A DNA stretch of 64,000 nucleotides from a virus (IMGVR_UViG_3300049460_000157:10741-74740), one strand, 5' to 3'; shown: positions 6,596 to 59,700, counted from the first letter of the stretch. Numbers and translations: made by a program. Notes: generated by a model from the sequence alone, not told the origin.

Positions 6596-8425
6596 TTACG
6601 TCCCCCAGCCGTTGAATGGATGTCCCTGGTCAGTGAAGCCGATCAGTGACGGGTGGGTTGGAATCGCCTCGTTGTCGTACGTGCCGTACAACATGAAGGT
6701 GTTCTTGCGGATCTTGTCCGAGGCGGACTCATTCACGAACGTGCTCAGCACCGAGCACGCAGTGAACAGGATGCCGCTCGGAAAGCCGGGGTTGCCGACT
6801 GCGTTGAAGTACAGCGCAAAACAGCCCGGCTTGCCCACACCATTCACGTTGTCACCCACGAAGTGGCAGCGGTTGAAGTTGATGGAGTCCACAAACTTCA
6901 GCATGCCGGCGTACGCATTCGATGCACTGGACGTGTCGAAGCGGCAGTCATTGAACGAGGTGATCCACGTATCGTTCGACACTGCGTACACACCATCCAT
7001 CAGCAGACCGATGTTGCCATCCACGTTGGACGTGAAGTTGCACTCATTGAACACGTTGTGCGTGTTGTAGTTGCCGGTCGGAGCCGCCCCACCCTGGATG
7101 TTCAGGCCGATGGTCTTGTAGAAGCTGGCCGTCACGTTCTTCACCGTGCAGAAGCCGAACGAGTTCATCGAGAGCGCGGTGCTGGCGAGCGGACTATTCA
7201 CACCGTGACAGTAGATCTGGAACCCTTCCAGACGTACGGAAGCAATCGGACCGAGTACATTGACCATCGAGTTGATGTACGGCGCGCCCTGCCCACCATC
7301 GAGTGCCACCAGCATCGTGGGTACCGGTGCATAGAAGCTGCCCCCGCCACCCATGCCGATCAGCTGGATGCCGTTCTTGGTGGACGGTGTGCCGGCGTTG
7401 TCCCCGTTGCCGATAACGACCCCGCTCGCACCACCGATGCCGTAGCGCTTGCCCATCATGCGAACCTTGCCACCACCAGCCGGCAGGGCAGCGATCGCCG
7501 CATTGATCGCCGGCAGGTCGTTGGTCACGCCATCGCCCTTGGCACCGAACTGTTCAACGAACCAGTCCGGCCAGCCAACCAGCTCCCAGCAGCCGACGCC
7601 GCCCGCCGCGGTGACGATCGACCCGTTGTTCGCCAGACCCTGGGCGCGTGTCGCGTTGTAGTAGTAGTGGCCGCCACCGCCGTCGTTCACACCGTAGTAG
7701 CCCGTGACAAACACGTTCTGGAAGAACGTCGGGCTCAGTGTCTTGAGCGAGGCAATCGAGTTCACCACCCGGCTCAGACCGGTCTTGATGAGGGTACCGA
7801 GGTTGGTACCGTCAGCGAGACCGACCATGCCAGCACCGCCGACACCGGAGAAACTCGCCACCAGTGCAGCATTCAGCGCCTCGGTAGCGGCCGCAATCGA
7901 GTCGTAGACGGACTCATTCAGGCCAGCCAGTGCCGCATTGACCCGGCTGTTCAGGTCACCGATCGCAGCGTTGGGCGCCGAGTTGACTGCTGCCAGGTCG
8001 ATCCAGCCGGTATCCAGCTTGCCATCGACACCCGACTGCGGAACCTTGCTGGCAGTCGGTGTCTCGGTGATAAGCGTCAGGATATCGGGGATCGCCCAGA
8101 GCGTTGCCCAGTCAGTGTCACCGACATAGCGCCACTGCAGGTTGTTGTCGACCACCTGGAACTCCGGCGTCTTGCCGTCGAGCACACTGATGGCGAACAG
8201 GTTCTTCCATTCAGCCTCGCCAACATAGCGCCACTGAACATAGCCGCCGGCTTCCTGGAGCTCGACATTGTTCGGCTGGAGACTGGCCAGGTTCTCCGCC
8301 AGATAAACGATCTGGTCAAGGTTCTGGGCGACGGCCGCCACATTCCGGTAGGCCGTACCCAGCATCTTGTCGACGATGGGGGCGCCACCCCCACCACACA
8401 AATCCAGCGCATTGCGCATGCTCAT
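6596..8425 (-). CDS. tailspike / polysaccharide depolymerase (right-handed beta-helix) with N4-type N-terminal anchor
   Basis: VDKMLGTAY..V..VA.NL anchor, DGGGGHYYY head motif, VEQFGAKGDGVTNDLPAINAAI pectate-lyase-superfamily start, Asn/Cys-ladder repeats. Confidence 0.85.
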   Translation of the reverse strand: MSMRNALDLCGGGGAPIVDKMLGTAYRNVAAVAQNLDQIVYLAENLASLQPNNVELQEAGGYVQWRYVGEAEWKNLFAISVLDGKTPEFQVVDNNLQWRYVGDTDWATLWAIPDILTLITETPTASKVPQSGVDGKLDTGWIDLAAVNSAPNAAIGDLNSRVNAALAGLNESVYDSIAAATEALNAALVASFSGVGGAGMVGLADGTNLGTLIKTGLSRVVNSIASLKTLSPTFFQNVFVTGYYGVNDGGGGHYYYNATRAQGLANNGSIVTAAGGVGCWELVGWPDWFVEQFGAKGDGVTNDLPAINAAIAALPAGGGKVRMMGKRYGIGGASGVVIGNGDNAGTPSTKNGIQLIGMGGGGSFYAPVPTMLVALDGGQGAPYINSMVNVLGPIASVRLEGFQIYCHGVNSPLASTALSMNSFGFCTVKNVTASFYKTIGLNIQGGAAPTGNYNTHNVFNECNFTSNVDGNIGLLMDGVYAVSNDTWITSFNDCRFDTSSASNAYAGMLKFVDSINFNRCHFVGDNVNGVGKPGCFALYFNAVGNPGFPSGILFTACSVLSTFVNESASDKIRKNTFMLYGTYDNEAIPTHPSLIGFTDQGHPFNGWGT

Positions 8426-8426
8426 A

Positions 8427-9128
8427 TCAGATCCATCCATTTTTTTCGAAACGTTTGCCTGTGGTTGAGATACTGGTACTCACCAGATCCTGTTGAATAA
8501 CTTCGGCACAGATGTTCTCGAAGGCAGTCTCGTGCGTACCTGCAATGCCCATTGACTCTTGCGTGTTCATCTGTCCAAAGGTTCTGGCTGCGATCCATGC
8601 CCGGAGGGCAGGAACGAGTACATCCGGCAGCTCGATCTCCTGGGTGAGGTCATCGAGGATGAGCTGGGGATGCTTTGCCTGATACATGACGCTCAGGGCA
8701 ACGCCCGTCTTCGGACGGGGCACCTGCAGCACATTGCCCTGCGTGAAAACGGAGTGCGGGTTGTCGTCGTCATTCAGCGGCAACAGCACGCCGTAGCTGT
8801 TGAAGACATTGAGGATGCGGATCGCGTCTTCCTCGAATGGCTCGAGCGGCAGATCCCGGATGTAGAGGACCGTCTGCGTCGAGGTATCCGCCTGCGACTG
8901 GGCGAACTTCTTCAGCAGGTGGTAACTGGTGATCCAGTCCACCAGATCGATGAGGACATCGTTCTGCTTCAGGATGAAACGGGTGTAGAGCTTGAGCAGC
9001 CCGTCATTGGCAAAACGGATCACCCGCTCCTTGCCGGCGTCCGTAATGGTGCCGTCTCCGTCATTGGCGAGGGCGAGGCTCGACAACTCTCCGAAGGAGA
9101 GGTCAGTAAACAGCTGTTCGATATTCAT
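8427..9128 (-). CDS. virion structural / head-tail adaptor protein (N4 gp67-like)
   Basis: LSFGELS, GLLKLYTRF, YQAKHP and RFEKNGWI motifs; position right after the terminase. Confidence 0.8.
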   Translation of the reverse strand: MNIEQLFTDLSFGELSSLALANDGDGTITDAGKERVIRFANDGLLKLYTRFILKQNDVLIDLVDWITSYHLLKKFAQSQADTSTQTVLYIRDLPLEPFEEDAIRILNVFNSYGVLLPLNDDDNPHSVFTQGNVLQVPRPKTGVALSVMYQAKHPQLILDDLTQEIELPDVLVPALRAWIAARTFGQMNTQESMGIAGTHETAFENICAEVIQQDLVSTSISTTGKRFEKNGWI

Positions 9129-9135
9129 CTCAACC

Positions 9136-10725
9136 TCACACGATGTAGGAAGACAGTCCGCTTGGGTCTGACTCCCGATGCTCTTCCTCGTAGATCTGAA
9201 CTTCAGACGGCGTAGCAGGGGCGCTGTCGCTGGGGCGCCAGGGCTTGAGGAATCCGAGCATCGAGATGGTGTCGATGAAGTCGTCCTTGCCTTTGATGCC
9301 CGACGATGTGACCAGCTTGATCTGGCCCATTGCGATGCCCATGATGACGCTGTGCTTCATCTCATCCGGGAAGTAGAACTTACCGGCCTTGAACCAAGGA
9401 ACTACAAGATTGAAGCGGGAGAGCTTGTCGGTGATTGGGCGTATACCAGGGGTTCCACTCTTCTCCGACGACGCGAAGTTGAACCAGACATTCCGGTTCA
9501 TCATCTCGGTCTGGAGCCAGGAAATGAAGCCACCCTGCTGTCCCGTGATCTCGATGCCTACCTGCTGGGGTTTATATAGTTGTACCAGGCGAAACAGGTC
9601 GTTGACTGTCTTGTCCATCTTCTGACGTTCACAGATACCGTCAACCCAGAACCAGTCGCCATTGGAATTGTAAGCCCAAACACTGATGACAGAGTAGTCA
9701 GCTGTCTGTTTTTCGGACGTTGCGAAGTCTGTGGTGATATAGAAATTAAAACTGTTGCGGTTCTCCAAAAGATTGGTCCGCTTGTACCACCGGATCTCGT
9801 CGTCCTGGACCAGTCGTTCTTCCTCCGAACTGATACGCAGCATCAGTTCCTGCATGAATCCGGAGACTTTCCCGGTCAGCACCGCCATGTCGTACTGCTC
9901 TTTGACGTACTTGTAGCTGAAGCGATCCTCCCAGGCGCCGACGAAATCCGCCTCCTCGCACGGGAAACGCTCGCAGACCGGCCACACGTTCACGTCCCAG
10001 GCGCCCGATTCGACTGCCTCGATCAGGATGTCTTCCTTGTTGAACGGCGTGCCGTTGAAGACGACCTTGCGGCGTGTCGGATCCAGTGCGTGATTCACAC
10101 CCTTGTAGACCGTGTCCTTGATGGCGACCATCGCCGCCTTGGACTTCGAGTCGTCATCACTCACCAGGTCATCGAGCACCGCCACGACCGGCCGCTTGCC
10201 GAAGATCTTCGTCCCACGCAGGCCCGTCTTCGCACCGAACATCTTGATGCCGATGCGGTGCCCTTCCCGGTTCTGGAACTCTATGTAGTTGTCCGTGAAG
10301 GAGGCGTGCGGAATCCACTCCTGCAGGAACTCAGAGTTGTTGTACCGGAACTCAATGTTCTTTCGGGCAGACTTAACGCCGTTGTCCATTGAGTCAGATA
10401 CATAGATCATCCCCTCAACCTTACCGAAGCCTGGGATGTATCCGAACATACCGAGGAACAGTGAAAAATACTCCATGAACAAAGTAGTTTTCGCTGCACC
10501 CCGGAAGCAGAGGTTCGCAATATAGTCAGACTTCGATTCAACCACCTTGTCGAGCATCTTCAGATGCACTGGTGGGGTCTTGTGGGATTCGCCCTGCTCT
10601 CCATTCGCCAACTTGATAAAGTTCATGAAGGTCAGGGCAAACACACTTGGCGTGTAACTCGGTGCATTCAGGTCTTTGTAACTGACCTGATCGAGCCACG
10701 CATCCAGCTCCTGTTTGATGAGCAT
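9136..10725 (-). CDS. terL: terminase large subunit (N4 gp68-like)
   Basis: Walker A-like CFRGAAKTT, Walker B VLDDL, coupling GTP motif, RNase H-like nuclease (TDFA...DYS, DDFIDTISML). Confidence 0.95.
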   Translation of the reverse strand: MLIKQELDAWLDQVSYKDLNAPSYTPSVFALTFMNFIKLANGEQGESHKTPPVHLKMLDKVVESKSDYIANLCFRGAAKTTLFMEYFSLFLGMFGYIPGFGKVEGMIYVSDSMDNGVKSARKNIEFRYNNSEFLQEWIPHASFTDNYIEFQNREGHRIGIKMFGAKTGLRGTKIFGKRPVVAVLDDLVSDDDSKSKAAMVAIKDTVYKGVNHALDPTRRKVVFNGTPFNKEDILIEAVESGAWDVNVWPVCERFPCEEADFVGAWEDRFSYKYVKEQYDMAVLTGKVSGFMQELMLRISSEEERLVQDDEIRWYKRTNLLENRNSFNFYITTDFATSEKQTADYSVISVWAYNSNGDWFWVDGICERQKMDKTVNDLFRLVQLYKPQQVGIEITGQQGGFISWLQTEMMNRNVWFNFASSEKSGTPGIRPITDKLSRFNLVVPWFKAGKFYFPDEMKHSVIMGIAMGQIKLVTSSGIKGKDDFIDTISMLGFLKPWRPSDSAPATPSEVQIYEEEHRESDPSGLSSYIV

Positions 10726-11402
10726 CAGATTTCTTTGGCCTCCACATCAATGATCCGTTGACCGGCGATCTCTTTCGCCGTCACACCGGAGAGAATCAGG
10801 TTGCGTTGCTGTTCGGCCAGTTTCCCGAGCATGTCCTTCATCTCGGTCATGCCACTGGACTCCTTCATGTCGATGTTGATCAGCGGGCCGGCTTCCTTCG
10901 GCTTGGCCAGGTGCGTGAGGATCGAGTTGGCTGCGTCCGTGCGCACCTTCTCCGACACCGCCTCGACCATCAGCTTGGCCTGCACGTTCAGGGCTTTCTG
11001 GTACAGATCCTGGTTGAGCACCCAGCTCGGCACGAGCGACTGTTCCAGGATCAGGTTGACGAGCTTGCCCTTGGCGTACGCGGACACGTACGCGGAGATG
11101 TCCTTCTCGCTGGTTCCCTTGGCCATCAGGTTGGCCATGCGGCTCGGGAACGTCTTGAAGTAGGCGTCCTTGTTCGAGTCGCCCATCAGCTTGTAGCTGA
11201 CGAAGGCCACCGCGTGGACGTAGTCCTCGGTCTTGAACTTGCCGTCCTTCAGCACCGCGGTGTAGCTGATGAAGTTGTTGCGCACCTGCTCGGCAATCAG
11301 CGGATCGGCGGCGATGTTGTTCACCAGATCCACCAGCTGCGGCGTGATCGCACTCTTCAGGTTCGCGGGTACCGCCCGCTCGACGATTTCTTTGGTTAGC
11401 AC
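10725..11402 (-). CDS. N4 gp69-like protein (putative terminase small subunit)
   Basis: RNNFISYTAVL, AVAFVSYKLMG, AANSILTHL motifs; adjacent to terL. Confidence 0.8.
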   Translation of the reverse strand: MLTKEIVERAVPANLKSAITPQLVDLVNNIAADPLIAEQVRNNFISYTAVLKDGKFKTEDYVHAVAFVSYKLMGDSNKDAYFKTFPSRMANLMAKGTSEKDISAYVSAYAKGKLVNLILEQSLVPSWVLNQDLYQKALNVQAKLMVEAVSEKVRTDAANSILTHLAKPKEAGPLINIDMKESSGMTEMKDMLGKLAEQQRNLILSGVTAKEIAGQRIIDVEAKEI

Positions 11403-11467
11403 TTCTTCTTCCCCGTTAACTGGCGAGGGGCACCGGAGTGCCCCACGTTTTCAGCCTGTCGTTACTG

Positions 11468-12283
11468 TCAGGCGGCTGCCTTGAACTTCGCCGCTTCCTT
11501 CTCTTCCGCCCGCTTGAGCCGGCGCTGCAGGTACCAGAGGTAATCCTCCATGCCACCCGACTGCTTGAGCAGCTCGCGCCGCTCGATGTCCGGCAGTGCC
11601 TCGTAGTCCGGCGTCAGCAGGAAGGTCTTCAGCTTGGTGAGGCGCTCGCCCAGTTCTTCGGCCTCGACCTTCATGCGCTCGATGAAAGTCGTCTTGCGGG
11701 GTTCGGCGCCGACCGTGTAGGCCTTCTCGAATACATCCCTGGGTGACCAGGAGATGTAGCCGGCAAAGCCTTCGACGTTCGGCTTGCCGCCGTCCGTGTA
11801 CTCGACGAGGTAGCCCGGCGTTTCCGGATCCTCGTTCTCGGGGATCGTCCAGCCGCGCACGGCGTTGTAGGTGCCCAGGTTCATCGGCACGCCGCGGACC
11901 ACCTTGGTGCCGACATACGTCAGCGGACGGGAGCCAAGGAGGGAAACGATCGCTCCGGTTGCCGGCCCTGCCCGGTCGATCAGCTCCAGCTTGCGGGCCA
12001 GCTCGAAACCGAGCAGCGGCCAGATCTGACCGACCGCATCCTTCTTCGCCAGCTCGCGCCCGATGTCCGGGTTGAAGTTTTCCTTGCTCACGCAGCTCGA
12101 CTTGCCGACCGAGCTGAAGCGGCCACCGGCCATCGACAGCTGGGCAATCGTGGTCGTGCCATCCTGGAGCAGCGTGTAGCTCTCGTCCTGGATCGCGGCC
12201 ATGACCTGTTCAAGGGTCACGCGGGGAGCAACGGCAGCGGCCGCCAGTTGTGCTTCGGTGATAGGTGCATGCGGTGCATTCAT
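11468..12283 (-). CDS. three-domain fusion: N4 Gp49/Sf6 gp66-family domain + SWSP-motif domain + crAss001_48-like helical domain (candidate anti-defence protein)
   Basis: APRVT...G.SSCVSKENFNPDIGRELA...IWPLLGF; YVGTK...GYLVEY.DG...YISWSPRDVFEKAY; ERMKVEAEEL.ERL.KL..FL...M..YL..L.RR. Confidence 0.7.
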   Translation of the reverse strand: MNAPHAPITEAQLAAAAVAPRVTLEQVMAAIQDESYTLLQDGTTTIAQLSMAGGRFSSVGKSSCVSKENFNPDIGRELAKKDAVGQIWPLLGFELARKLELIDRAGPATGAIVSLLGSRPLTYVGTKVVRGVPMNLGTYNAVRGWTIPENEDPETPGYLVEYTDGGKPNVEGFAGYISWSPRDVFEKAYTVGAEPRKTTFIERMKVEAEELGERLTKLKTFLLTPDYEALPDIERRELLKQSGGMEDYLWYLQRRLKRAEEKEAAKFKAAA

Positions 12284-12480
12284 CTTGCTGGTCCCTTTTC
12301 TGTTCGGTAGTCCACAAATAGACTGAATATAGTTTAGAGTCTATTTAGATAATAGTCTATACTTCCTCAAACAAATCTCTATTCCATATGGGAATGGGAG
12401 GGCGTCAGCTATGGCTGCTTCGCAACAGGAAGGGGAAAAACAGAAAAACCGAGAAAAATCTTTCCACCAAGTTACCTTGG

Positions 12481-12489
12481 TGTTAACCT
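12481..12489 (+). promoter_or_regulatory. extended -10 promoter candidate for the ncRNA
   Basis: TG-T-TAACCT about 7 nt upstream of the first hairpin of a structured, terminator-bounded region. Confidence 0.45.
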
Positions 12490-12495
12490 GGCTTT

Positions 12496-12714
12496 GCGTT
12501 TCCTTCCGAAAGCGGAAACGTGGTTGATGGGCTGGTGATGTGGCCTTCGTCTTGACCCCAGTGGAGAGTGGGGCTAATAACTTCCACAGTTGAGGCTGTC
12601 AGACTCCTTCACACCTTCGGGTGTGCGCTTCACGACAAGTGACTCAACCCGGTGTCTGTATCGGTCAAGCAGAGGAAAGCCGAGAACACCCCCGCATGTG
12701 TTCTCGGCTTTTTT
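12496..12714 (+). ncRNA. putative ~220-nt structured non-coding RNA
   Basis: Nested stems (GCGTTTCC/GGAAACGT, CTTGACC/GGTCAAG, GTTGAG/CTCAAC, CACAC-cUUCGg-GTGTG) ending in a strong terminator; no credible ORF. Confidence 0.6.
12676..12714 (+). terminator. Rho-independent terminator
   Basis: AAAGCCGAGAACAC / GTGTTCTCGGCTTT perfect 14-bp stem plus T-run. Confidence 0.85.
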
Positions 12715-12829
12715 GTGTCTACGACCTCTAAGTTATATCTAAGCGGCCGCTCACCTTCCACTGAAGACCTGTTCTGTCTGGCTCAGGACAGACAGTTAGT
12801 TGCATCACTGGAGCCAAGGGAAAGAAGGA

Positions 12830-13072
12830 TCAGCCGGCATCAGCATTAACCCGGCTCACCAGCACCTGGATCTGGGCTGCGTCTCCCTCAGTCTGATAGC
12901 CCATGGTCAGCATTTCCCAGTACATCTGCACGCCCAGGGCCATGCCCTTGAGCAACCGGATCGTGTACTCGTCCGTCTCCTTATCCGCCTGGTCCGCATA
13001 GCGCCTGAGCTGCTTCTCAGTCGCCGCGGTGATCTCTTCGTAAGTCCACATCCTGACGCTCTGGATACTCAT
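12830..13072 (-). CDS. hypothetical protein
   Basis: 80 aa, GGAGG RBS, phage-like codon usage. Confidence 0.65.
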   Translation of the reverse strand: MSIQSVRMWTYEEITAATEKQLRRYADQADKETDEYTIRLLKGMALGVQMYWEMLTMGYQTEGDAAQIQVLVSRVNADAG

Positions 13073-13079
13073 ACGACCT

Positions 13080-13262
13080 CCTAGTTATGTCGCGTATAGG
13101 GTAAAATTTCGCCCAAATTTTTTGGGGAAAGGGTTCGGCAGAAAGTGATAGGTACGTCTCACTGCAGGGTTGGGCCTCTGGCCCTACACCTTACACATAC
13201 ACTACCCCCCCGGTCATTCCGGGATGGTGGGATCTAGGTGCCACCCCTTGTTATCACGCATA
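13080..13262. other. probable genome end / terminal-repeat region
   Basis: Non-coding strand-switch zone between the terminase block and the first vRNAP promoter, with homopolymer runs (TTTTTTGGGG, ACTACCCCCCCGGT); N4-like genomes end here. Confidence 0.55.
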
Positions 13263-13266
13263 CACG

Positions 13267-13287
13267 GGCGCTCCGCGCCTTGTGGAT
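13267..13287 (+). promoter_or_regulatory. virion-RNAP early hairpin promoter 1
   Basis: GGCGC-TCC-GCGCC-TTGTGGA; the template strand forms a 5-bp stem with C-GGA-G triloop as in N4 early promoters. Confidence 0.85.
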
Positions 13288-13323
13288 ATCCGTCCATAAC
13301 CTGTACTTACTTGGAGTTTGACC

Positions 13324-13629
13324 ATGGCAAACCTTCGTCTCACGCTCGGCGCTGTATTCGGTGCAGTTACTGGTGCTGCTGATGCAGTCACCAACACCCT
13401 CAACGCTGCCAACACTGGTGTGGCAATGCTGAGTCGTTCTGTCTCTGATGCTAGTGAGCGTCAGGTTGTACGTGCTGGCTTCGACAGCAAGGTCTTCAAG
13501 GCTACTGTCAAGCAGGAAAAGGCTAAGGAACTGACTGTGTCTCGTCTGGAGATCAAGCAGTTCATTGCTCAGTCTGCTGATCATGCAACTTTGTACGAAG
13601 CTGCGTTCAACGAACTCGAAGCTGCCTAA
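13324..13629 (+). CDS. first early gene (N4-like gp1-type protein)
   Basis: 101 aa helical protein with GGAG RBS directly after vRNAP promoter 1; T-ending codon bias. Confidence 0.7.
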   Translation: MANLRLTLGAVFGAVTGAADAVTNTLNAANTGVAMLSRSVSDASERQVVRAGFDSKVFKATVKQEKAKELTVSRLEIKQFIAQSADHATLYEAAFNELEAA

Positions 13630-50821: not shown

Positions 50822-51592
50822 ATGAGTGAAGTATTGGAAGTCCAGGGAACCGACGTGAGTGCGGCCAATGATCAGCTGATCATGATCTGCGGTTTCTCTG
50901 GCGAGGGAAAGAGCGCAAGCCTGCGCCATATCCGCAACCAGCAGAACTGGATGTACCTGAACTGCGAAGCCGGCAAGCGCCTGCCGTTTGCCAACAAGTT
51001 CGACCGCTACACCATCACCGATCCGTACCAGGTGCATGAAGCGTTCGATGCAGCCACACAGGGCCAGCTCGACTACGTATGCGAAGGGATCGTCATCGAC
51101 TCGGGCACGTTCCTGATGGAGATGTTCGAGACCATGTACGTGCTCGGTTCAGCCGACACCATGAAAGGCTGGAGCCAGTACCAGCAGTTCTGGAAGACGC
51201 TGATGCAGCAGAAGGTAGCGGCATTTGGCAAACCGGTGCTGATCACCGCTCACCTGCTCGACGTGCTCGATGAAAAGAGCATGTCCATGAAAACCAGTGT
51301 CCCTGTGAAAGGTGCACTGAAGAACAACGGTCTGGAAGCCTACTTCTCGACAGTTGTCAGTGCCACGAAGGTTCCTCTCAAGGAGCTGGAGAAGTTCGGC
51401 AACAAGATGCTGGATATCACGGAAGACGAGAAGGAGCTTGGCTTCAAACACGTCTTCCAGACCCGCATCACGAAGCAGACCACCGGCATGCGCCTGCGCA
51501 GTCCGATGGGCATGTTCAAGCGCGAAGAGACCTACATCGACAACGATGCCCAGAAGCTGCTTGATCACCTGAACGAGTTCTACGACATCTGA
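50822..51592 (+). CDS. Sak4-like AAA protein (N4 gp44-like)
   Basis: GFSGEGKSASL, LNCEAGKRLPF, VKGALKNNGLEAYFS, RSPMGMF. Confidence 0.85.
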   Translation: MSEVLEVQGTDVSAANDQLIMICGFSGEGKSASLRHIRNQQNWMYLNCEAGKRLPFANKFDRYTITDPYQVHEAFDAATQGQLDYVCEGIVIDSGTFLMEMFETMYVLGSADTMKGWSQYQQFWKTLMQQKVAAFGKPVLITAHLLDVLDEKSMSMKTSVPVKGALKNNGLEAYFSTVVSATKVPLKELEKFGNKMLDITEDEKELGFKHVFQTRITKQTTGMRLRSPMGMFKREETYIDNDAQKLLDHLNEFYDI

Positions 51593-51656
51593 TCGGTCAA
51601 CCCCCGTCAAGAAAACATAGACCTCACGTCAACACATCACTGAAAGAGAAAACATC

Positions 51657-52421
51657 ATGAGCTTGTTTGGAAACCTGAAAAGCGAAGGCCTGGAACAATC
51701 CGAAGACCGCCTGGGTGGCAACTTCGGCCCGGTCGAATCGGACATCTACAAGGCGGTGATCAAGGCGGCCTACGCCGGCCAGGCAGCGAGCGGTGCACGC
51801 TCGGTGTCATTCATCTTCGATCTCGGCGGCCGCGAGTTCCGCCCGACGATCTACATCACCAACAAGAAGGGCGAAAACTACTTCATCAACAAGGACGACA
51901 AGACGAAGAAGGTACCGCTGCCGGGCTTCACGACCGTCGACGATATCTGCCTGGTCGCCACCGGCAAGCCGCTCGCTGAGCAGGACGCCGAGGACAAGGT
52001 CATCAAGCTGTACGACCCGGAGCTGAAGAAGGAAGCGCCGAAGTCGGTGCCGATGCTCATCGAGCTGGTCGGCAAGGAAGTGTCGCTCGCCGTGCTGAAG
52101 CTGCTGGTGAACAAGAACGTGAAGAACGACGCCACCGGCGAGTACGAGCCGACTTCGGAAACGCGTGAAGAAAACAACATCGAGAAGGTGTTCGACACCG
52201 ACTCGAAGATGACCGTCAACGAAGCCCGCCAGGGTGCCGAGACGGCTGCCTTCTGGGACGGCTGGCTCGAGCGCAACAAGGGCAAGACGCGTGACAAGCG
52301 CACGCTGAAGGACGGCGAAACGGGCAACGTTGGCGCACCGAAGGCTGCGCGTCCGGCTGGTGCTGCCCCGCAGGCGGCCAACACCGAACGCAAGTCGCTG
52401 TTCGGCAAGAAGGCCGCGTAA
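51657..52421 (+). CDS. ssb: single-stranded DNA-binding protein / late-transcription activator (N4 gp45-like)
   Basis: EDRLGG...ESDIY, LPGF, C-terminal RKSLFG; synteny. Confidence 0.85.
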   Translation: MSLFGNLKSEGLEQSEDRLGGNFGPVESDIYKAVIKAAYAGQAASGARSVSFIFDLGGREFRPTIYITNKKGENYFINKDDKTKKVPLPGFTTVDDICLVATGKPLAEQDAEDKVIKLYDPELKKEAPKSVPMLIELVGKEVSLAVLKLLVNKNVKNDATGEYEPTSETREENNIEKVFDTDSKMTVNEARQGAETAAFWDGWLERNKGKTRDKRTLKDGETGNVGAPKAARPAGAAPQAANTERKSLFGKKAA

Positions 52422-52434
52422 GGCGAGGCCGATC

Positions 52435-53013
52435 TTGCGAATCCAAGTCGCAGGCATGGACCCCAGTATGCGTAACTGGGGCTGTGCCGAAGCCTCTCTC
52501 GATCTGGACTCTGGCGTGCTGTCGGTCCCTGTTCTGTCCCTGGCTCAGCCGGAGGACATCAAGACCAAGCAGACTCGCCAGAACTCCAACGACATGTACC
52601 TCGCCAAGGTGCTCTATGAGCACGCCCTCACCGTCGCTCGACGGAGCAAGGTCATCTTTGTGGAGGTGCCAGTGGGTTCCCAGTCTGCGTCCGGTATGAA
52701 AGCGTACGGAATGTGCGTCGGTATACTGGGTGCACTACGGGCAGAAGGGCACGAGATCATCGAGGTCACCGCGACTGAAGTGAAGAAGTTTTTCACTGGA
52801 GACCCCAACGCTTCCAAAAAGCAGATGATTGCCCAGGGAGTGCAGGACTATCCCACGGCGAACTGGCCTCGATACGAAAAGAACGGCGCGACCTTCAGGA
52901 AGGGTGACATCTCCAACGATGCCGAGCACGTTGCCGATGCCATCGCCGCAATACACGCCGGAGTTAACACTCCGATGTTCCAGAATCTAATGCGACTCTT
53001 CGCAAACCTTTAG
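52435..53013 (+). CDS. RuvC-like Holliday junction resolvase
   Basis: GMDPSMRNWG, FVEVPVGSQSA, ASKKQMI, EHVADAIAA; TTG start inferred. Confidence 0.85.
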   Translation: MRIQVAGMDPSMRNWGCAEASLDLDSGVLSVPVLSLAQPEDIKTKQTRQNSNDMYLAKVLYEHALTVARRSKVIFVEVPVGSQSASGMKAYGMCVGILGALRAEGHEIIEVTATEVKKFFTGDPNASKKQMIAQGVQDYPTANWPRYEKNGATFRKGDISNDAEHVADAIAAIHAGVNTPMFQNLMRLFANL

Positions 53014-53022
53014 GAAAAGAGC

Positions 53023-53532
53023 ATGCAAATCATTATCGTTCAGGCTGAGATCGAAGCTGCGATCCGCAACTACATCAACAATCAGCTCCAGGTAAAGGAC
53101 GGTCACCGTATCGACATCGAGCTGTCGGCCACCCGTGGCGCCGATGGTTTCAAGGCGACCATCGACATCGTGGCAGCGAACGCCCCGAGCCTGCCGAAGG
53201 GTTCACCGGAAGTCGATGCTGCACCGGCCCCGGCTCCTGCACCGACGCCCTCGCCGGCGAAAGCGGAAGTTGCCGTGGTGCGCTCCGTGATCTCGAGCCC
53301 GGCACCTGCCCCGAAGCCGGAGCCGGCCGCAAAGGACCCGGAAGCCGCCCAGGCACTGTCGACCGATGGTGCAGCTGCCGAAGCTGGTGCTGCGTCGAAT
53401 GCTTCGGCTGAGACGGCCCAGGAAGGCGCTGCTGACGCTGGAGCCAAGCAGGATGGAGCTCCGGTCGTCGAAGCTGAAGCGAAGCCGGCACGCAGCCTGT
53501 TCGCTGGTCTGAAGAAGCCGGTTAACGCGTAA
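53023..53532 (+). CDS. conserved N4-like protein with Pro/Ala-rich tail
   Basis: MQIII.Q.EIE.AI..YI N-domain and RSLFAGL C-terminus. Confidence 0.75.
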   Translation: MQIIIVQAEIEAAIRNYINNQLQVKDGHRIDIELSATRGADGFKATIDIVAANAPSLPKGSPEVDAAPAPAPAPTPSPAKAEVAVVRSVISSPAPAPKPEPAAKDPEAAQALSTDGAAAEAGAASNASAETAQEGAADAGAKQDGAPVVEAEAKPARSLFAGLKKPVNA

Positions 53533-53791: not shown

Positions 53792-56700
53792 TCAGCCCAG
53801 GACGTTAACCCAGGGATTCATCATCGGCGCATGGAACACCTGCCCCATCCCGAACGAGTGGGTCAACCCGCCATCGATCAGCTTCGTGAAGAAGTTGTCC
53901 CCGAGCGGCGTGCCCACCGAGCCGAACATGTGCGGGATCGGTACCGATGCGGCCAGCAGTGAGTGCACCGGATTGTTGCGCACCATCGACATGGCCACCT
54001 TGGCTGCCCGGATCTTGAAGTTGTAGAACCACAGCAGACCCATCGACTCCAGGTAACCCCGGAAGCGGCCCGGCAGCTTGTCGTAGTTCACGAACTCTTC
54101 GGTCACACGGGAGAGCGCATACTCGCTCGACTTGTTCTGACGTTTCGTCAGATCATCGTAGAGCAGCGCCTTGGCGATGAAGTCCCCGTACTCAACCGAC
54201 TTCTGCAAGCCCTTGAAGAGTGCCGTGTCCTTCGTCACCAGGGCGTAGCGGCCAGCCGTCTTCAACGACTTCGGCAGCTTGTCCACCTGGGCCTCCAGGT
54301 ATGACTGGACCTTGCCCGAGGTCAGGGTCACGTCATCGGAGCCCACACGGGAAGCATCCGAGATGCCGGTGAATTCCCCGGCCTCGATCAGCGGGTGAAT
54401 CGACAGACGTTTGAAATTGTCCTCGATCAGTTGCCACTGGGTGCCGAGCTTACGGGTGGCCACCGGATCATCGGTCGCTGTGCGCATCTGGGCCTCGAGC
54501 TGGATCTGCTGCAAACGGCCCTTCACGTAGAAGTTGGTCTCCACGATCTTGCGCGGTGCGCCCGCCACGATGTGCTTCAGCGGCACACCGCGGCTGGTCA
54601 GCTGCAGGACGTTGCCCAGCATGTTGGTCACCGGCACCACCACCGACTTGACGACGATCAGCGTCTTCGAGTCACCGATGAAGTTCTGCAGCGTCTTCTC
54701 GGCATTGGTGAAATACTGGTAGGCCTTGTTGCCGAACATGCCGATCATCACCCGCTTCAGGTACTCCTGAGTCTCCGGTGACCAGCGGGAATTCCCCGTG
54801 AACACGTCACCCACCGACGCATTCCGGTAGCCCATCGCATCATGCAGCATGTCACGGGAGACATAGAAGTTGTCCCCGAAGACTGCCTTGATACGCTGGC
54901 GGGTTTCCGGCGTCATCAGCTTCACCGCATCAGCGATCACCGGATCCTTCGCCAGTTCACGCGGATCGTTCAGGTTCACATATTCCTTCTGGTTCGAGGC
55001 CGACTCCTTGATGTCAGCCTGATACCGGGCATGCAGCGCATCGATCAGCGCATTGTTGAACTCCTGCGCCTTGGCTTCCTCGACCTGCCGGCCACGCCAC
55101 ACCCCGATCATCTGGGCCAGGTTCTGCCCGGAGACCGTGCGCTGGGCCTGCTCCGGATCCACCGATCGCTCGTAGGCCACCGGCACACCCTTGTCATCGA
55201 AGACAGGCATCAGCGGCTCGGTACCGGACTCGCCCCGTGCCAGATTCAGCGTGGTGCGGGCCACTTCCGCCCGGTCAGTGATACGGCCGGCAACCATCGC
55301 GGAGTTGTTGAAGCCGGTACCGATATCCACCCCGTTCATCGACTGGCGCACGTTCTGGAAAATCCCCTGGTTAAACAGCGTGCGGGAGGAGACCGGCGCG
55401 AAGTAGTAGCCCATGCGACCCTTCAGGCCGTCTGCCGAGCTGCCCTTGTAGTCAGCCACCCGGACGTACGAACGTTCCGTGAGATTCTGGTACTGGGAGT
55501 CATCAGCCACCATCAGGTGCACGCCAGACTTCTGCTGCTCCGGGACGTAACCCTTGAAGCCGTTCAGCTTCGCACGCAGCGACATGTCAGCCTTGCGCTG
55601 CTCTTCCGCACGCTGGCCCACCAGGTAGTCGGTAGCGAACTTCAGACCGGCGCTTTCATTCTGAACCAGGGAAGCCAGTGTGGTCTTCTCGGCCAGGCTG
55701 AGCTGCTCCACCGCGTAGAGCGAAGTCAGATGGTCGATCATCTGGACGAAGTCCGCACCACGGGTTCCCGTCCTGCGGGCCTTCTTCTCACTGAGCAGGC
55801 GGGAGATGGCTTCGGCATTGCGCAGCAGGTTCGTGCCGACCTGACCCGTCATCTGGAACTTCGCCAGCTGCTGCATCTTCTTCTGGTACAGCCCCCAGTT
55901 GGCCGGATCAGCCTGCTGGATCTTCGACTCGAGATCATTGATCGCACGGTCGAGCACCTGCGCATCCCCGAGCATGCCCTGGATCTCTGCGTGGCTGAAG
56001 CCGCTACGCAGTGCAGCAATGTCGGATCGGCCCAGTGCACGGTGCAGGGTTGCCCACTCGCTGTCTTCCAGCACACGACTGAACTGGTCTGCGATGATGC
56101 CCGGCACATGCTCACGATAGTTCTGGCGATCCTGCGAGACTTCCGCACGCACCGCTTTCATCATGTCGTAGACCGGCGCATTCTCACTGGTGCGGCCGAC
56201 GAAGTCATACACGAGGTCATGCAGCGGCTGCCATGCGTTGACCCGGTTCATCATGGTGACGACCGACTCCGTCACCTTGTTGCCATTCTTCTCAGTCGCC
56301 ATCTCGGCCGAGAGCTTGGCATACCAGGCCAGTTTCTTCGCCAGCGGCGAGGACTTCGGATCGTTGATCACCTGCTGCATGTTATCGATGATCCTGTCAG
56401 TCACACGTTCGACGCCCTGCACCACCGTTGCATTGAGCGAGTCAACCGCATCGCCCGCCCACGTCTGGCGCATGAAGGACTCCCGGTTGTGGGCCACTTC
56501 CAGGATGTGCTGCATCAGCGCATCGACGGAGGACAGGACATTCTTCTGGTCCCCGCCACCGGCCAGCGTGTCTGAGAGCTTGCCCATCAGGCCCATACCC
56601 AGGTTCTCGAGCAAGGCATCCAGCCGGCTGCGGGCTGTGGACTTCTCACCCCTGGGCAGATCCATCTTCTGGAGTACCGCACGGAAGTCGTCGTTCGTGA

Positions 56701-59700
56701 TCGCCAGACCCAGGAACATCGGCATCAGTGATGAACGACCTGACTTGTCCGTGGACGTGCCGAAGTCACCCATGATGGTGTTGTACTTCTGCTGGGCCTG
56801 GTACCGGTCAGCCGGATCATTGGCTTCCGGCGCCGTCTTCATGAAGTGCTCGACCGTCAGGTTCTTCGTGACGTGCTGGTACAGCTCCTGCACCTTGGTC
56901 ATCGAGACAGGATCGATATGCGCCTGCGTACCGAGTGCGGCCGCAATCAGCGAGAAGGTGGAGGCGGCCTGCATCGACATCGGGAAACCATGCGCCTGCG
57001 CATTGAGTGCCAGACCGGCCGCCTGCACCTGGGCGAAGTTCTTCTGTGCCCGGTTGGTAGACGTGGAATCCACCGGCTGCGGCTCACGGACAAACGAGTC
57101 CAGCAGGTTGGAGAACGCCTGGTTCACCGCAAGCAGGCGGGAATCCGTGCCGTACTGTGTGCTCTGGTACAGCGCCGTGCTGCGCAGTGCTTCGGCCACG
57201 GACGGCTGCGAGCGCATCAGCACCGCGGAGTTGAACAGCAGGTTGCTGAACATGTCGGTACCCGGCGTGACCGGCACCTTCTTGCGACCGTAGACCAGCT
57301 GCTTGATCCACTGGAAGACCTCACGTGACATCTGAGCCAGGGAGGAAGTCTTCTTGCCCAGGTCAGCCAGATCCTTGTTGGCCAGTGCCCATGCCATGAA
57401 CTCATTCAGCGCTGAAGCACGTCCCTCCGATGTACCAAAGTTCTGGGCATGGATCGCAGCAGATGCATCAGCGTGTGCCTGCTGGGTTGCCAGTGACTCC
57501 CGCGAGACATCGAGATCGAGGAACTGATCCATCAGCGTTTCGATGTTGTGGATCGCTTCGCTCACTGCATCGGCATTCGCACCGCCTGGGTAAGGCGCGT
57601 CGTCAGCACGACCATTGTCGAGTACCTGCGCCTGATAGAACGCATGCACCGTATCGAACGTCGAGGCATGGATGAGCTCATGCGTGAGCGTCTCGCTCGA
57701 CGGATTCAGCAGGTAGATGCGTTGCGAACCCGGCAACGTCAGACCCTTCACACCCTGAGTGAAGGAGATGCCTGTATCGCTGTGGTTGAACGCGAACTTT
57801 GCCAGCTGCTCGGCGGTACCCGAGATCACCTTGTACCCTTTGGCTCCCAGCGAACGCCGGATCTCGTCGAGGATAACGAGCTGGTGCTCGGGGATGTTCG
57901 GCGTGGCGTTAGCCCGGACCTTGCCGATCGCCGTGGGCGAGAGGACACGGACACCGGTTGCCTTGTCCACCCGGCCAAACGAGTTGACCTGCTTCGTGAT
58001 GTCTTCCGACTTCACCGCTTCGGCGTTGGCCTTCGGATCTTCCGGCTGCTCGACGGGAACGCCCGGCTGGACCGGCGCCTCGACCTTGGCCTTCGCACGC
58101 AGCCTGGCCAGCTCCTCGGCGTAGAGATTCGCCAGCTGGGCGGCCTTCTCCTCGTCGGTACCGTTGATCTGGAGCTTGCCCTCAACAACGTGTGGAGCGC
58201 CGGCCGCCGCCATCTGGTCGACCGACAGGTTCACCTGGCCCATCACGTTGTGGCGGGCCTGAACTTCCATGGCATTGTCATCCAGCACCTGGACCATTGC
58301 CGCCATGACCAGATCGAGCGATTTGGCCGAGACCGTTTTCGGATCCGTGCCCAGACCGAACACCGCTTTGGCCAGCTCACCGAAGGTCTTTTCATCGAGC
58401 TGAGCCGAGGAGAACTTCTCCTTGCCAAGGGTATCCATGAACGCACTGTAGGCATCGTGCACAGCGCGCAGTGGATTGCCCTGCCACGAGTTGAGCACTG
58501 CCTCATTGGCGGCCTGGCTCTGCTCCGTGATCGCATCGAGCGGCATGTTCATACCGTCGAAGATCTTCAGCGTGCGCTGCACACGGGGATCGTTGGCCAG
58601 GTTCTGCATCATCTTGCCGTCGCCCATCCCGATGTTCAGGAACGGGATACCCGCCACCCCGGCATTGGCGGGGCCATAGACGAACGCCGGCGAGCGGAAC
58701 TTGCCGTTGAGCGCCCGACCGAAGTCCTCGGCATCGACACCACTGTTCTGCGAACCAGCGATGAAGAAGGACTGGTCCTTCGTCTGAACCAGGGGATGGT
58801 ACGGGGCCAGCGAGTCCATCACTTTCTTCAGTTCATTGGACGACAGGAACTCATCCCGCTTGAAGTTCGGGTCAGTCTTCGCTTTCTCTTCCAGTGCAGC
58901 ATCAACACCCTGGAGGAACAGGTGCTGCATCACGATCGATTGCACCTGAGTGGCCTGACGGATCAGCTTCGTGCTCGACTCCAGATCACCCACCACATCC
59001 CGGATCGCCAGGCGCAGCGGATCGACGAACAGCGTGCGCATGTTCGTGGACATGTTCTTCAGCTCTTCCGGCGTGAAGGTGTACTTGCTGAAGCCAGCGT
59101 CATGGGTCTTGTTCGCCAGCGTAGGCGAGTCGATCCGGAAGTGTGCCTTCTTCTTTGAGCTGTAGACCGCGGAGAACTGCGTCAGCGCTTCAATGTGCTG
59201 GCCGAACTTCGCCCACTTTTCGGCGGCCAGCGGATCATTCGGGAAGAAGGCTTCTGCCGGCGTGATCGATTCTCCGGCCTTCTTTGCATCAGCCATCCGT
59301 TGGGCGGCATCGCTCATGCGCTCATAGATCGCATCCACCATGCCCCTGACCATCTTGGCCGCAATGCCATTGGCGCCCGAGCCGTAGATCGTGATGGTCA
59401 GCGGATTCTTGGCGATGCCCCGGCCGATCACCAGTTTGCCATCCTTGATGTCCAGGTCCGGCAGGAACATGTCCATCAGTTTCATCAGATGGGTCTGCTG
59501 CGTCAGCACCTCCCCGTTTTTCTGGTTCTTCAGGGACGCATTCAGATCCCGCAGGTGCGTGCGCAGGCGATCGATGGTGGCCTGATACAGATCGGCCGCA
59601 CCTTCCGGCGTCGAGCGGATCGCCGCCGAGGTATTGGCCGCCGTGCCGCCGATCTCCAGACCGCCGCGGCGCATGTTGGTCAGCCAGTCAGCCGTGAACG

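What the first reader, a model, noticed from the sequence alone, without database searches (positions are those of the whole stretch)
11468..12283. Triple-domain fusion that looks like a multi-specificity anti-immunity (nucleotide sponge) protein
Seen: three recognisable small phage domains in one 271-aa ORF. Residues ~18-100 match the N4 Gp49/Sf6 gp66 family, ~120-190 the YxGTK...GYLVEY.DG...SWSP..VFE.AY domain, and ~198-258 a crAss001_48-like helical hairpin. Knowledge (from memory, to verify): the anti-CBASS sponge Acb4 belongs to the Gp49/gp66 family, and phage sponges are often fused to other anti-defence domains. Inference: one polypeptide that sequesters or degrades several immune second messengers (CBASS/Thoeris/Pycsar type), placed at the head of the terminase operon.
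Basis: partly seen in the sequence, partly recalled or inferred. Interest (0 to 1): 0.75.

Follow-up and report, generated by a model that had tools for sequence, protein, structure and literature searches.

The report
Acb4–unnamed module–Sequestin phage sponge fusion
An N4-like phage gene joins two published "sponge" domains that soak up bacterial alarm nucleotides (Acb4 against CBASS, Sequestin against Thoeris) through a third, highly conserved 70-residue domain that no database names, that travels almost only with sponge domains, and whose job is still unknown.

Summary
Window 11468-12283 (minus strand) encodes a 271-aa protein with three domains: Acb4/PF13876 (res 22-98), an unnamed beta-barrel module "MID" (res 122-191) and Sequestin/PF21825 (res 199-258).

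PF21825 has since been shown to be a 3'cADPR sponge. Acb4-Sequestin fusions are published and characterised (Pseudomonas phage Ab09 gp59, 147 aa, no middle module). The two-sponge reading is therefore known biology.

What is left open is MID.
- It has no Pfam, NCBIfam or PDB match.
- It hits 1,366 clusters at 50% identity.
- It is more conserved (65% mean identity) than its flanking sponge domains (47% and 37.5%).
- Its recognisable partners are nearly all sponge families: Sequestin, Tad2, Acb4, Acb2/Tad1.
- It also occurs alone.
- It is the N-terminal half of coliphage N4 gp49.
- It is a better-conserved relative of the N-domain of "RyR Tad". That domain is a strand-swapped dimer in a crystal and showed no anti-Thoeris-I activity.

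"Degrades" and "Pycsar" have no support.

This scan has already found and followed up the same architecture in another genome (e1-6031792).

Verdict: a new variant of a known kind, of moderate interest.

The parts
11468..12283 (-). 271-aa ORF: Acb4 - MID - Sequestin fusion protein (stop codon 11468-11470)
   Evidence: ORF list. About 60 full-length homologs on 73-79 kb N4-like contigs. AF2 model has mean pLDDT 93.1 and pTM 0.75.
11990..12220 (-). Acb4 domain (res 22-98), PF13876, cyclic-dinucleotide sponge family
   Evidence: Pfam 59.1 bits against a cutoff of 27. Foldseek to 9e4w gives prob 1.00, rmsd 0.9-1.5 A, TMt 0.63-0.76. VIA gives Z 9.7, rmsd 2.5 A over 75 residues. It is 33% identical to N4 gp48 and aligns with the Ab09 gp59 Acb4 half.
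11921..11989 (-). Linker (res 99-121): continuation of the long Acb4 C-terminal helix (H72-105), then a short helix and a loop
   Evidence: DSSP of the AF2 model. This stretch is variable in alignment A1.
11711..11920 (-). MID module (res 122-191): unnamed, acidic, aromatic-rich small beta-barrel; homolog of N4 gp49 res 9-76 and, more distantly, of the RyR Tad (CB1 gp68) N-domain
   Evidence: No Pfam, NCBIfam or PDB sequence hit. Domain-only AF2 model has pLDDT 90.4. 1,366 representatives. 59% identity to N4 gp49. hhalign to CB1 gp68 gives prob 96.4%, E 1.2e-9. It is the most conserved part of the protein.
11510..11689 (-). Sequestin domain (res 199-258), PF21825, helical hairpin, 3'cADPR/gcADPR sponge family
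   Evidence: Pfam 50.2 bits against a cutoff of 24.8. Helices 200-222 and 232-270. Invariant R203, E207, Q241 and R255 match the published R/E/Q/R ligand residues in type and spacing and align with the Ab09 gp59 Sequestin half.
12679..12708 (-). 11-bp GC-rich hairpin (GCCGAGAACAC / GTGTTCTCGGC) flanked by an A-run and a T-rich tail: terminator-like element upstream of the gene
   Evidence: Read from the sequence. Its core was picked up by the terminator scan.
12284..12400 (-). AT-rich upstream region with repeated TAGACT/AGTCTA motifs and an AAGGGA RBS-like motif: probable own promoter/operator region (type not identified)
   Evidence: Sequence. No sigma-70 consensus match.
11427..11444 (-). 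7-bp GC hairpin (GGGGCAC-TCCG-GTGCCCC) between the stop codon and the next gene (10725-11402)
   Evidence: Sequence. It has no T-tail, so any role (attenuation or RNA stability) is inferred only.

Best explanation
The gene encodes a counter-defence protein of an N4-like phage, built from modules. The N-terminal Acb4 domain should tetramerise and sequester CBASS cyclic dinucleotides (3'3'-cGAMP and, in Gram-negative-host homologs, c-di-AMP species). The C-terminal Sequestin hairpin should dimerise and sequester the type I Thoeris signal (3'cADPR / gcADPR). Together they should blunt CBASS and Thoeris, as shown for the shorter Ab09 gp59 fusion. The inserted MID module is most likely a third, autonomous binding unit rather than a passive spacer. 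It would be a small beta-barrel that dimerises by beta1 strand exchange, as its RyR Tad relative does, and uses its invariant K, R-G-W, E, D-G-G..N and aromatic residues to bind a further small-molecule signal not covered by the other two domains. What is shown here: domain identities, folds, conserved ligand residues, family size, partner census and homology to N4 gp49 and RyR Tad. What is taken from papers: ligand binding and defence inhibition by the Acb4 and Sequestin families. What is inferred: any activity of this particular protein, and everything about what MID binds.
For: Acb4 domain: Pfam above cutoff. Fold match to 9e4w. Contact residues F48, F62, N63 and I66 of SPO1 Acb4 are retained as F56, F70, N71 and I74 (alignment, residue list). 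All eight tested PF13876 homologs bound cGAMP.

Sequestin domain: Pfam above cutoff. R203/E207/Q241/R255 are invariant in 44 orthologs. They have the same residue types and spacing as SequestinB R7/E11/Q45/R59 and align with Ab09 gp59, whose Sequestin half was crystallised and whose full-length protein binds gcADPR, cGAMP and 2'3'-cAA.

MID as an autonomous functional unit:
- Within the same 44 polypeptides its mean pairwise identity is 65%, against 47% for Acb4 and 37.5% for Sequestin.
- About 55% identity persists across unrelated architectures, with about 20 invariant polar or aromatic positions.
- Stand-alone 88-105 aa forms exist, and Atlas clusters of 77-93 aa viral proteins have about 80-115 members each.
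- Of 144 representatives, 46 carry Sequestin, 37 Tad2-like, 24 Acb4 and 3 Acb2/Tad1. RyR Tad is a further partner. This is the same guilt-by-fusion logic that uncovered Sequestin.
- The order Acb4 > MID > Tad2/Sequestin recurs both fused and as adjacent split genes.
Against: No ligand or target of MID is known. The only tested relative, CB1 gp68 res 1-86, had no activity against type I Thoeris, and in the crystal it serves as a beta1-swapped dimer interface. That version lacks RGW, the E of LVEY, DGG..N and the terminal Y, and it was tested against only one system. MID is acidic (mean net charge -3.2; 93% of 265 copies are net negative), whereas published sponges have positively charged pockets. 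Ab09 gp59 works and tetramerises without MID. The gene sits at the head of the late-oriented terminase string rather than in the canonical N4 anti-defence hotspot next to vRNAP, and its expression time is unknown. Five of nine mappable SPO1 Acb4 contact residues differ (E49>S57, V56>C64, Y57>V65, T70>L78, K81>P89), so the ligand range of this Acb4 domain cannot be read from the sequence.
Confidence: 0.38

Rival explanations
1. This is a two-sponge protein in which MID is only structural. MID would be a strand-swapped dimerising connector that sets the geometry or stoichiometry between a tetrameric Acb4 (or Tad2) core and dimeric partner domains, or that stabilises the protein, with no ligand of its own.
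For: The RyR Tad N-domain is a MID homolog (hhalign prob 96.4%; BFVD match to the TG1 RyR protein, E 6e-5). In the crystal it forms a domain-swapped five-stranded sheet that contributes to dimerisation, and alone it showed no anti-defence activity. MID usually sits between or N-terminal to sponge modules. Its acidic surface is atypical for nucleotide pockets.
Against: A pure connector would not be expected to be the most conserved part of the protein, nor to keep about 20 invariant polar or aromatic residues across phages of Proteobacteria, Clostridium and Bacteroidota hosts. Stand-alone MID proteins are common, and a lone connector has nothing to connect. Acb4, Tad2 and Sequestin oligomerise by themselves, and Ab09 gp59 is a tetramer without MID.
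Confidence: 0.3
2. MID is a protein-binding Tudor/SH3-like domain. It would inhibit or dock onto a conserved host protein, such as a defence effector or sensor, a sponge-sensing guard such as Panoptes, or RNA polymerase, adding a non-sponge counter-defence activity to the sponge fusion.
For: The best structural analogues are RNAP-interacting Tudor-like domains: CarD (Z 4.7, rmsd 2.6 A over 58 residues), Mfd RID (Z 4.6 and 4.1), the UvrD/PcrA C-terminal domain and CdnL (Z 3.7-4.0). Tudor, chromo and SH3 barrels follow. An acidic, aromatic-rich surface suits binding a basic protein surface. High conservation across hosts fits a conserved protein target.
Against: All these Z scores are below the noise level the tool itself quotes (typical best Z is 7-8 for unmatched models), so the fold class is generic. 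No partner is known. Co-occurrence is specifically with small-molecule sponges.
Confidence: 0.17
3. The protein is not counter-defence at all. It would be a packaging or virion-assembly accessory of the terminase operon, and the Pfam hits would be incidental.
For: Only position: it is the first gene of the string containing the PHROG 2109 gene (whose positional equivalent in Arace01 is annotated as small terminase), TerL and the adaptor.
Against: Both Pfam matches are well above their curated cutoffs, with fold and ligand-residue support. Homologous modules in N4, Ab09 and CB1 lie in the anti-signalling hotspot, not near the terminase. The gene has its own upstream terminator and a promoter-like region.
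Confidence: 0.03

Closest known systems
Acb4-Sequestin fusion gp59 of Pseudomonas phage vB_PaeP_C2-10_Ab09 (also the phage YH6 fusion); bioRxiv 10.64898/2026.06.04.730250 and 10.1101/2025.07.12.664507
   Same: Same two Pfam domains in the same order, in an N4-like phage. About 33% identity over the aligned ends. The Sequestin R/E/Q/R residues are conserved. Ab09 gp59 binds gcADPR, cGAMP and 2'3'-cAA and inhibits type I Thoeris and, partially, type II-A CBASS.
   Different: Ab09 gp59 is 147 aa with the domains abutting (Acb4 1-83, Sequestin 84-147). The window protein has a ~120-residue insertion holding a helix extension and the 70-aa MID module. The Ab09 gene lies in the primase-vRNAP hotspot. 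This one lies at the far end of the late gene string, upstream of the terminase genes.
Coliphage N4 gp48 + gp49 (EF056009 33632-34485)
   Same: gp48 is Acb4 (PF13876, 119.5 bits). gp49 res 9-76 is MID (59% identical to the window's module), followed by a sponge domain. The order Acb4 > MID > sponge is the same.
   Different: It is split into two overlapping genes. The third module is Tad2-like (PF11195) rather than Sequestin. It is located next to vRNAP.
RyR Tad (gp68 of Pectobacterium phage vB_PatP_CB1), N-terminal domain
   Same: Homologous to MID (hhalign prob 96.4%, E 1.2e-9; BLASTP E 7e-6, 34% identity). It sits N-terminal to a gcADPR sponge domain. It is described as a fold of unknown function that is often encoded alone.
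   Different: It is a diverged, shorter version lacking the RGW, DGG..N and other invariant positions of canonical MID. Its partner is a ryanodine-receptor Repeat12-like domain. Its crystal shows a beta1-swapped dimer, and no activity was found against type I Thoeris.
SPO1 Acb4 (PDB 9E4W)
   Same: Same fold (VIA Z 9.7; Foldseek prob 1.0) and same Pfam family. The adenine-pocket residues F62/N63/I66 and the stacking residue F48 are retained.
   Different: 21-27% identity. The guanine-reading E49 and the backbone contacts Y57, T70 and K81 are substituted. SPO1 Acb4 is a single-domain 96-aa protein.
Acb4-Tad2 fusion of Pasteurella phage Pm86
   Same: A validated precedent that one polypeptide carrying two sponge domains cancels both CBASS and Thoeris.
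   Different: Different second sponge. Whether it contains MID was not examined here.

Membership tests
Acb4 (PF13876, Phage_gp49_66) | Match to the family HMM above the curated cutoff | tested here: met
   59.1 bits against a cutoff of 27, res 22-98, profile 1-81 of 82
Acb4 (PF13876, Phage_gp49_66) | Three-stranded antiparallel sheet flanked by helices, dsRBD-like, as in 9E4W | tested here: met
   Foldseek prob 1.00, rmsd 0.9-1.5 A over 64-70 columns. VIA Z 9.7, rmsd 2.5 A over 75 aligned residues.
Acb4 (PF13876, Phage_gp49_66) | Ligand-contact residues of SPO1 Acb4 (K36, F48, E49, V56, Y57, F62, N63, I66, T70, K81) | tested here: inconclusive
   From the HMMER alignment and the residue list. 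F56, F70, N71 and I74 are conserved. S57, C64, V65, L78 and P89 differ. K36 lies outside the alignment.
Acb4 (PF13876, Phage_gp49_66) | Homotetramer that sequesters 3'3'-cGAMP | not testable with these tools
   Needs SEC-MALS and binding assays. All 8 tested family members bound cGAMP.
Sequestin (PF21825, crAss001_48) | Match to the family HMM above the curated cutoff | tested here: met
   50.2 bits against a cutoff of 24.8, res 199-258, profile 2-61 of 61
Sequestin (PF21825, crAss001_48) | Conserved ligand residues R/E/Q/R (SequestinA R8, E12, Q47, R61; SequestinB R7, E11, Q45, R59) | tested here: met
   R203, E207, Q241 and R255 are invariant in 44 orthologs. Their spacing of 4/34/14 equals that of SequestinB. 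They align with the corresponding residues of Ab09 gp59. The mapping is by alignment and spacing, not by a solved complex.
Sequestin (PF21825, crAss001_48) | Antiparallel helical-hairpin dimer that binds 3'cADPR | not testable with these tools
   The monomer model shows the hairpin (H200-222, H232-270, pLDDT >90). Oligomer state and ligand were not tested.
MID / RyR Tad N-domain family (unnamed) | Sequence homology to CB1 gp68 res 1-70 and to N4 gp49 res 9-76 | tested here: met
   hhalign prob 96.4%, E 1.2e-9. BLASTP E 7e-6. N4 gp49 is 59% identical, E 9e-27. BFVD match to the TG1 RyR-domain protein, E 6e-5.
MID / RyR Tad N-domain family (unnamed) | Beta1 strand-swapped homodimer | not testable with these tools
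   Known only from the crystal description in the preprint. That structure is not in the PDB copy searched.
Tad2 (PF11195, DUF2829), considered for MID | Match to the family profile | tested here: not met
   No Pfam hit at E<=1 on the window protein. MID against a Tad2 profile in hhalign gives prob 0.1%. In MID-Tad2 proteins the PF11195 match lies outside MID.
Tad2 (PF11195, DUF2829), considered for MID | Tad2 fold | tested here: inconclusive
   Foldseek to SPO1 Tad2 gives E 1.2-2.3, prob 0.13-0.18. VIA gives Z 2.1, rmsd 4.2 A.

The most novel reading that the evidence does not exclude
MID is a previously unrecognised, autonomous family of phage counter-defence proteins: a new sponge, or an inhibitor with a new target. 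It has more than 1,300 clusters at 50% identity, is present in the type phage N4 (gp49 N-half), and has been missed because no Pfam model covers it. Its fusion partners of unknown family (about 15-20% of carriers, the 'MID-?' class) would then be a direct handle on further undiscovered sponge families, as RyR Tad already illustrates.
Probability: 0.35. Interest if true: 0.75.

Novelty: new variant of a known kind. Interest (0 to 1): 0.45.

Why it matters
The two-sponge core only re-finds published biology. The added value is the middle module. It is one of the commonest fusion partners of at least five unrelated sponge families (Sequestin, Tad2, Acb4, Acb2/Tad1, RyR Tad). It evolves more slowly than any of them. 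It also exists on its own, and it sits in coliphage N4 itself. Pfam-based fusion screens, which is how Sequestin was found, could not see it.

If MID binds a signal or a host factor, it is a large new counter-defence family. If it is only a dimerising clamp, it explains how phages assemble mixed sponge arrays. Either way it is a practical search key for new sponge domains, through the many 'MID-?' proteins.

The gene's location outside the described N4 anti-signalling hotspot also shows that the hotspot is not the only place these phages keep such cargo.

Tried and rejected
1. MID homodimer prediction (complex prediction, two copies with alignment A4) gave no verdict: median score 0.38 against a mark of 0.42, controls 0.00. 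It is not used as evidence either way.

2. MID as a diverged Tad2/DUF2829 domain. This was prompted by a motif resemblance and by weak Foldseek rows. It was rejected at sequence level (hhalign prob 0.1%). Structurally it is negligible (VIA Z 2.1).

3. PDB searches for MID found nothing usable.
- phmmer and profile searches: best E 1.4 to an unrelated dehydrogenase.
- Foldseek: best E 0.23, to a portal protein.
- VIA against 48,161 representatives: best Z 5.1, DUF1653 3be3.
These show only a generic Tudor/SH3-like barrel.

4. NCBIfam gave no hit for the protein or for its downstream neighbour.

5. ESM Atlas returned only unnamed viral clusters of 77-93 aa.

6. The sigma-70 promoter scan of 11200-13500 found none, so promoter type and expression timing remain undetermined.

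Neighbourhoods of stand-alone MID genes were examined instead through IMG/VR loci.

8. Literature. No paper in the library names crAss001_48 as such. The Panoptes/N4 Acb4 preprint and the Tad1/Tad2/Acb2 diversity preprint do not mention the module.

9. The 'anti-CRISPR protein' label on MID-Tad2 genes in phages Louie, Huey and phi1_146050 is an automatic annotation with no supporting evidence seen here. It was not adopted.

10. The canonical hotspot of this phage (ORFs at 50822-53532) was scanned for sponge domains, and none was recognised.

Full report
**1. Observation**

The window holds a 271-aa ORF on the minus strand at 11468-12283. An AAGGGA RBS-like motif lies about 10 nt before the ATG.

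- Pfam places PF13876 (Phage_gp49_66) at residues 22-98: 59.1 bits against a cutoff of 27.
- Pfam places PF21825 (crAss001_48) at residues 199-258: 50.2 bits against a cutoff of 24.8.
- Residues 122-191 have no Pfam or NCBIfam match. They hit PHROGs 872 and 9467 at about 1e-23.

**2. Genomic context**

The genome is a complete 74.7-kb viral record with terminal repeats. The window is bases 10741-74740 of that record.

It is an N4-like (Schitoviridae-type) phage.
- TerL is 74% identical at DNA level to Achromobacter and Stenotrophomonas N4-like phages.
- A virion RNA polymerase ORF of more than 3,366 aa lies at 53792-64000.

On the minus strand the 271-aa gene is followed by a 225-aa PHROG 2109 gene. 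Its positional equivalent in Pseudomonas phage Arace01 is annotated as small terminase. TerL, an SU10-type adaptor and a tailspike-like protein come next.

- Upstream lies an 11-bp GC hairpin with a T-rich tail (12708-12679), then an AT-rich stretch with TAGACT repeats.
- A 7-bp GC hairpin (11444-11427) separates the gene from the next one.
- No sigma-70 consensus was found.
- The canonical N4 anti-signalling hotspot between primase and vRNAP (here 50.8-53.7 kb) contains no recognisable sponge.

**3. The two outer domains are known sponges**

*Acb4.* Chang et al. (bioRxiv 10.1101/2024.12.30.630793) state that SPO1 Acb4 homologs constitute PF13876. All eight tested members bound 3'3'-cGAMP, and some carry extensions. 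The AF2 model of the whole protein has mean pLDDT 93.1.
- It matches 9E4W with Foldseek prob 1.00.
- VIA gives Z 9.7, rmsd 2.5 A over 75 residues, model range 22-98.
- From the HMMER alignment and the published contact list, F48, F62, N63 and I66 are retained as F56, F70, N71 and I74.
- E49, V56, Y57, T70 and K81 are substituted.

*Sequestin.* Tal et al. (bioRxiv 10.1101/2025.07.12.664507) showed that PF21825 is "Sequestin", a 3'cADPR sponge that cancels type I Thoeris. They counted 91 Acb4-PF21825 fusions and 60 Tad2-PF21825 fusions in Pfam. Their functional residues (SequestinB R7, E11, Q45, R59) correspond in type and spacing to R203, E207, Q241 and R255. These four are invariant in 44 orthologs and align with Ab09 gp59.

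*The fusion.* Ab09 gp59 is a 147-aa Acb4-Sequestin fusion. It is a tetramer. It binds gcADPR tightly and cGAMP more weakly, binds 2'3'-cAA, and inhibits type I Thoeris and, partially, type II-A CBASS (bioRxiv 10.64898/2026.06.04.730250).

**4. The middle module (MID)**

*Size and distribution of the family*
- phmmer of residues 115-195 against 1.84 billion representatives gives 1,366 hits at E<=1e-3 and 734 at E<=1e-10.
- tblastn finds it in 132 deposited phage genomes.
- A pattern scan finds at least 560 IMG/VR loci, on contigs of 30-215 kb.

*Structure.* The domain-only AF2 model (pLDDT 90.4) is a small barrel of 4-5 strands with two short helices. It has no significant PDB match.
- Foldseek: best E 0.23.
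- VIA: best Z 5.1 to DUF1653, then CarD and the Mfd RNAP-interacting domain at Z 4.1-4.7.
- Profile search against PDB sequences: best E 1.4.

*Fusion partners*
- Pfam census of 144 representatives: 46 with Sequestin, 37 with Tad2-like, 24 with Acb4, 3 with Acb2/Tad1, and single cases of four other families.
- Local HMM architectures over 265 proteins: ACB4-MID-SEQ 68, MID-TAD2 64, MID-unknown 40, MID-SEQ 24, ACB4-MID 18, MID alone 12. The first 120 of these proteins came from a full-length query, which inflates the first class.
- 80 independent IMG/VR loci: MID-TAD2 32, MID-unknown 16, MID-SEQ 14, ACB4-MID-SEQ 7, MID alone 3.
- In about 13 of those 80 loci a separate Acb4, Tad2 or Sequestin gene lies 3-130 nt away on the same strand.

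*Coliphage N4.* Here the arrangement is split. gp48 is Acb4 (119.5 bits). The overlapping gp49 is MID (res 9-76, 59% identical to the window's module) followed by Tad2-like (res 83-159).

*Constraint and composition*
- Within the same 44 orthologous polypeptides, mean pairwise identity is 65% for MID, 47% for Acb4 and 37.5% for Sequestin.
- MID is acidic (mean net charge -3.2; 93% of copies net negative).
- It is aromatic-rich (14%).

**5. Link to a solved structure**

A note from an earlier follow-up in this scan (e1-6031792) pointed to a strand-swapped crystal dimer. I traced this to RyR Tad, gp68 of Pectobacterium phage CB1, in the Migulavirinae preprint, and tested the link myself.
- hhalign of the MID profile against gp68 gives prob 96.4%, E 1.2e-9 over residues 3-69.
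- BLASTP gives E 7e-6.
- BFVD Foldseek independently returns the Yersinia phage TG1 "RyR domain" protein at E 6e-5.

The preprint calls this N-domain a fold of unknown function that is often encoded alone. It reports a beta1-swapped dimer and no anti-Thoeris-I activity for residues 1-86.

The CB1 copy is a degenerate MID. It lacks RGW, the E of LVEY, DGG..N and the final Y. Per, its N-domain was tested on one system only.

**6. What the evidence allows**

The protein very probably (about 0.85) acts as a CBASS- and Thoeris-signal sponge through its Acb4 and Sequestin domains.

For MID I rank three readings:
- An autonomous third binder of a small-molecule signal (0.38). In its favour: the highest conservation in the protein, invariant polar and aromatic residues, abundant stand-alone forms, and the fusion logic that already uncovered Sequestin.
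- A purely structural swapped-dimer connector (0.30). In its favour: the RyR Tad crystal, the negative assay, and the acidic surface.
- A protein-binding Tudor/SH3-like inhibitor or docking domain (0.17). In its favour: weak CarD/Mfd-like fold resemblance, and acidity.

A packaging role has essentially no support (0.03). Nothing supports "degradation" or an anti-Pycsar role.

**7. Novelty and score**

Acb4-Sequestin fusions, multi-sponge fusions and the existence of the RyR Tad N-domain are all published. The same triple architecture was already followed up by this scan in another genome.

What this analysis brings together:
- MID is one large, unnamed family.
- It links at least five sponge families.
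- It is present in N4 gp49.
- It is under stronger constraint than its partners.
- Here it is inserted inside an Acb4-Sequestin fusion, at a non-canonical genomic site.

I class this as a new variant of a known kind, with interest 0.45.

Noticed in passing
L085:1432-2285 (coliphage N4, EF056009 33632-34485): In GenBank numbering, N4 gp48 is the PF13876/Acb4 protein, and gp49 is MID + Tad2-like (PF11195). The Pfam family name 'N4 Gp49' therefore does not match this record's gp49. The two genes overlap at the stop and start codons.
   Followed up: yes
window 50822-53532 (+), four ORFs of 256, 254, 227 and 169 aa between primase and vRNAP: This is the position of the published N4 anti-signalling hotspot. 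No sponge domain is recognisable here, and three of the four ORFs have no Pfam hit. They could be gp44/SSB/Bes1/Bes2-type genes or unknown cargo.
   Followed up: partly
P0245 (354 aa, metagenomic): This is a MID-Tad2 protein in which an HNH_3 + AP2 homing-endonuclease-like segment (res ~182-267) sits between two Tad2-like matches. That suggests a mobile endonuclease inserted into a sponge gene.
   Followed up: no
40 of 265 collected proteins and 16 of 80 IMG/VR loci (e.g. P0154, P0259, P0179, P0243, P0258): MID is fused to C-terminal regions of 50-200 aa that match none of Acb4, Sequestin, Tad2 or RyR and are mostly singletons by BLAST. They are candidate undiscovered sponge or anti-defence domains.
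   Followed up: partly
window 12284-12400 (minus strand): An AT-rich stretch directly upstream of the gene carries several direct and inverted TAGACT/AGTCTA repeats. It may be an operator or a non-sigma-70 promoter. In N4-like genomes the physical ends probably lie in this ~1-kb intergenic gap.
   Followed up: no
L001:2513-2983 (Escherichia phage Louie) and similar genes in phages Huey and phi1_146050: MID-Tad2 genes in Sf6/P22-like and N4-like phages are annotated as 'anti-CRISPR protein'. The protein is MID + DUF2829, and no evidence for anti-CRISPR activity was seen.
   Followed up: partly
window 6596-8440 (-) and 6653-8500 (+): The 614-aa tailspike-like ORF has a weak pectate-lyase-like hit and is mirrored by a 615-aa antisense ORF. 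The same happens over TerL and the 225-aa gene. These are typical long shadow ORFs of GC-rich DNA, not genes.
   Followed up: no
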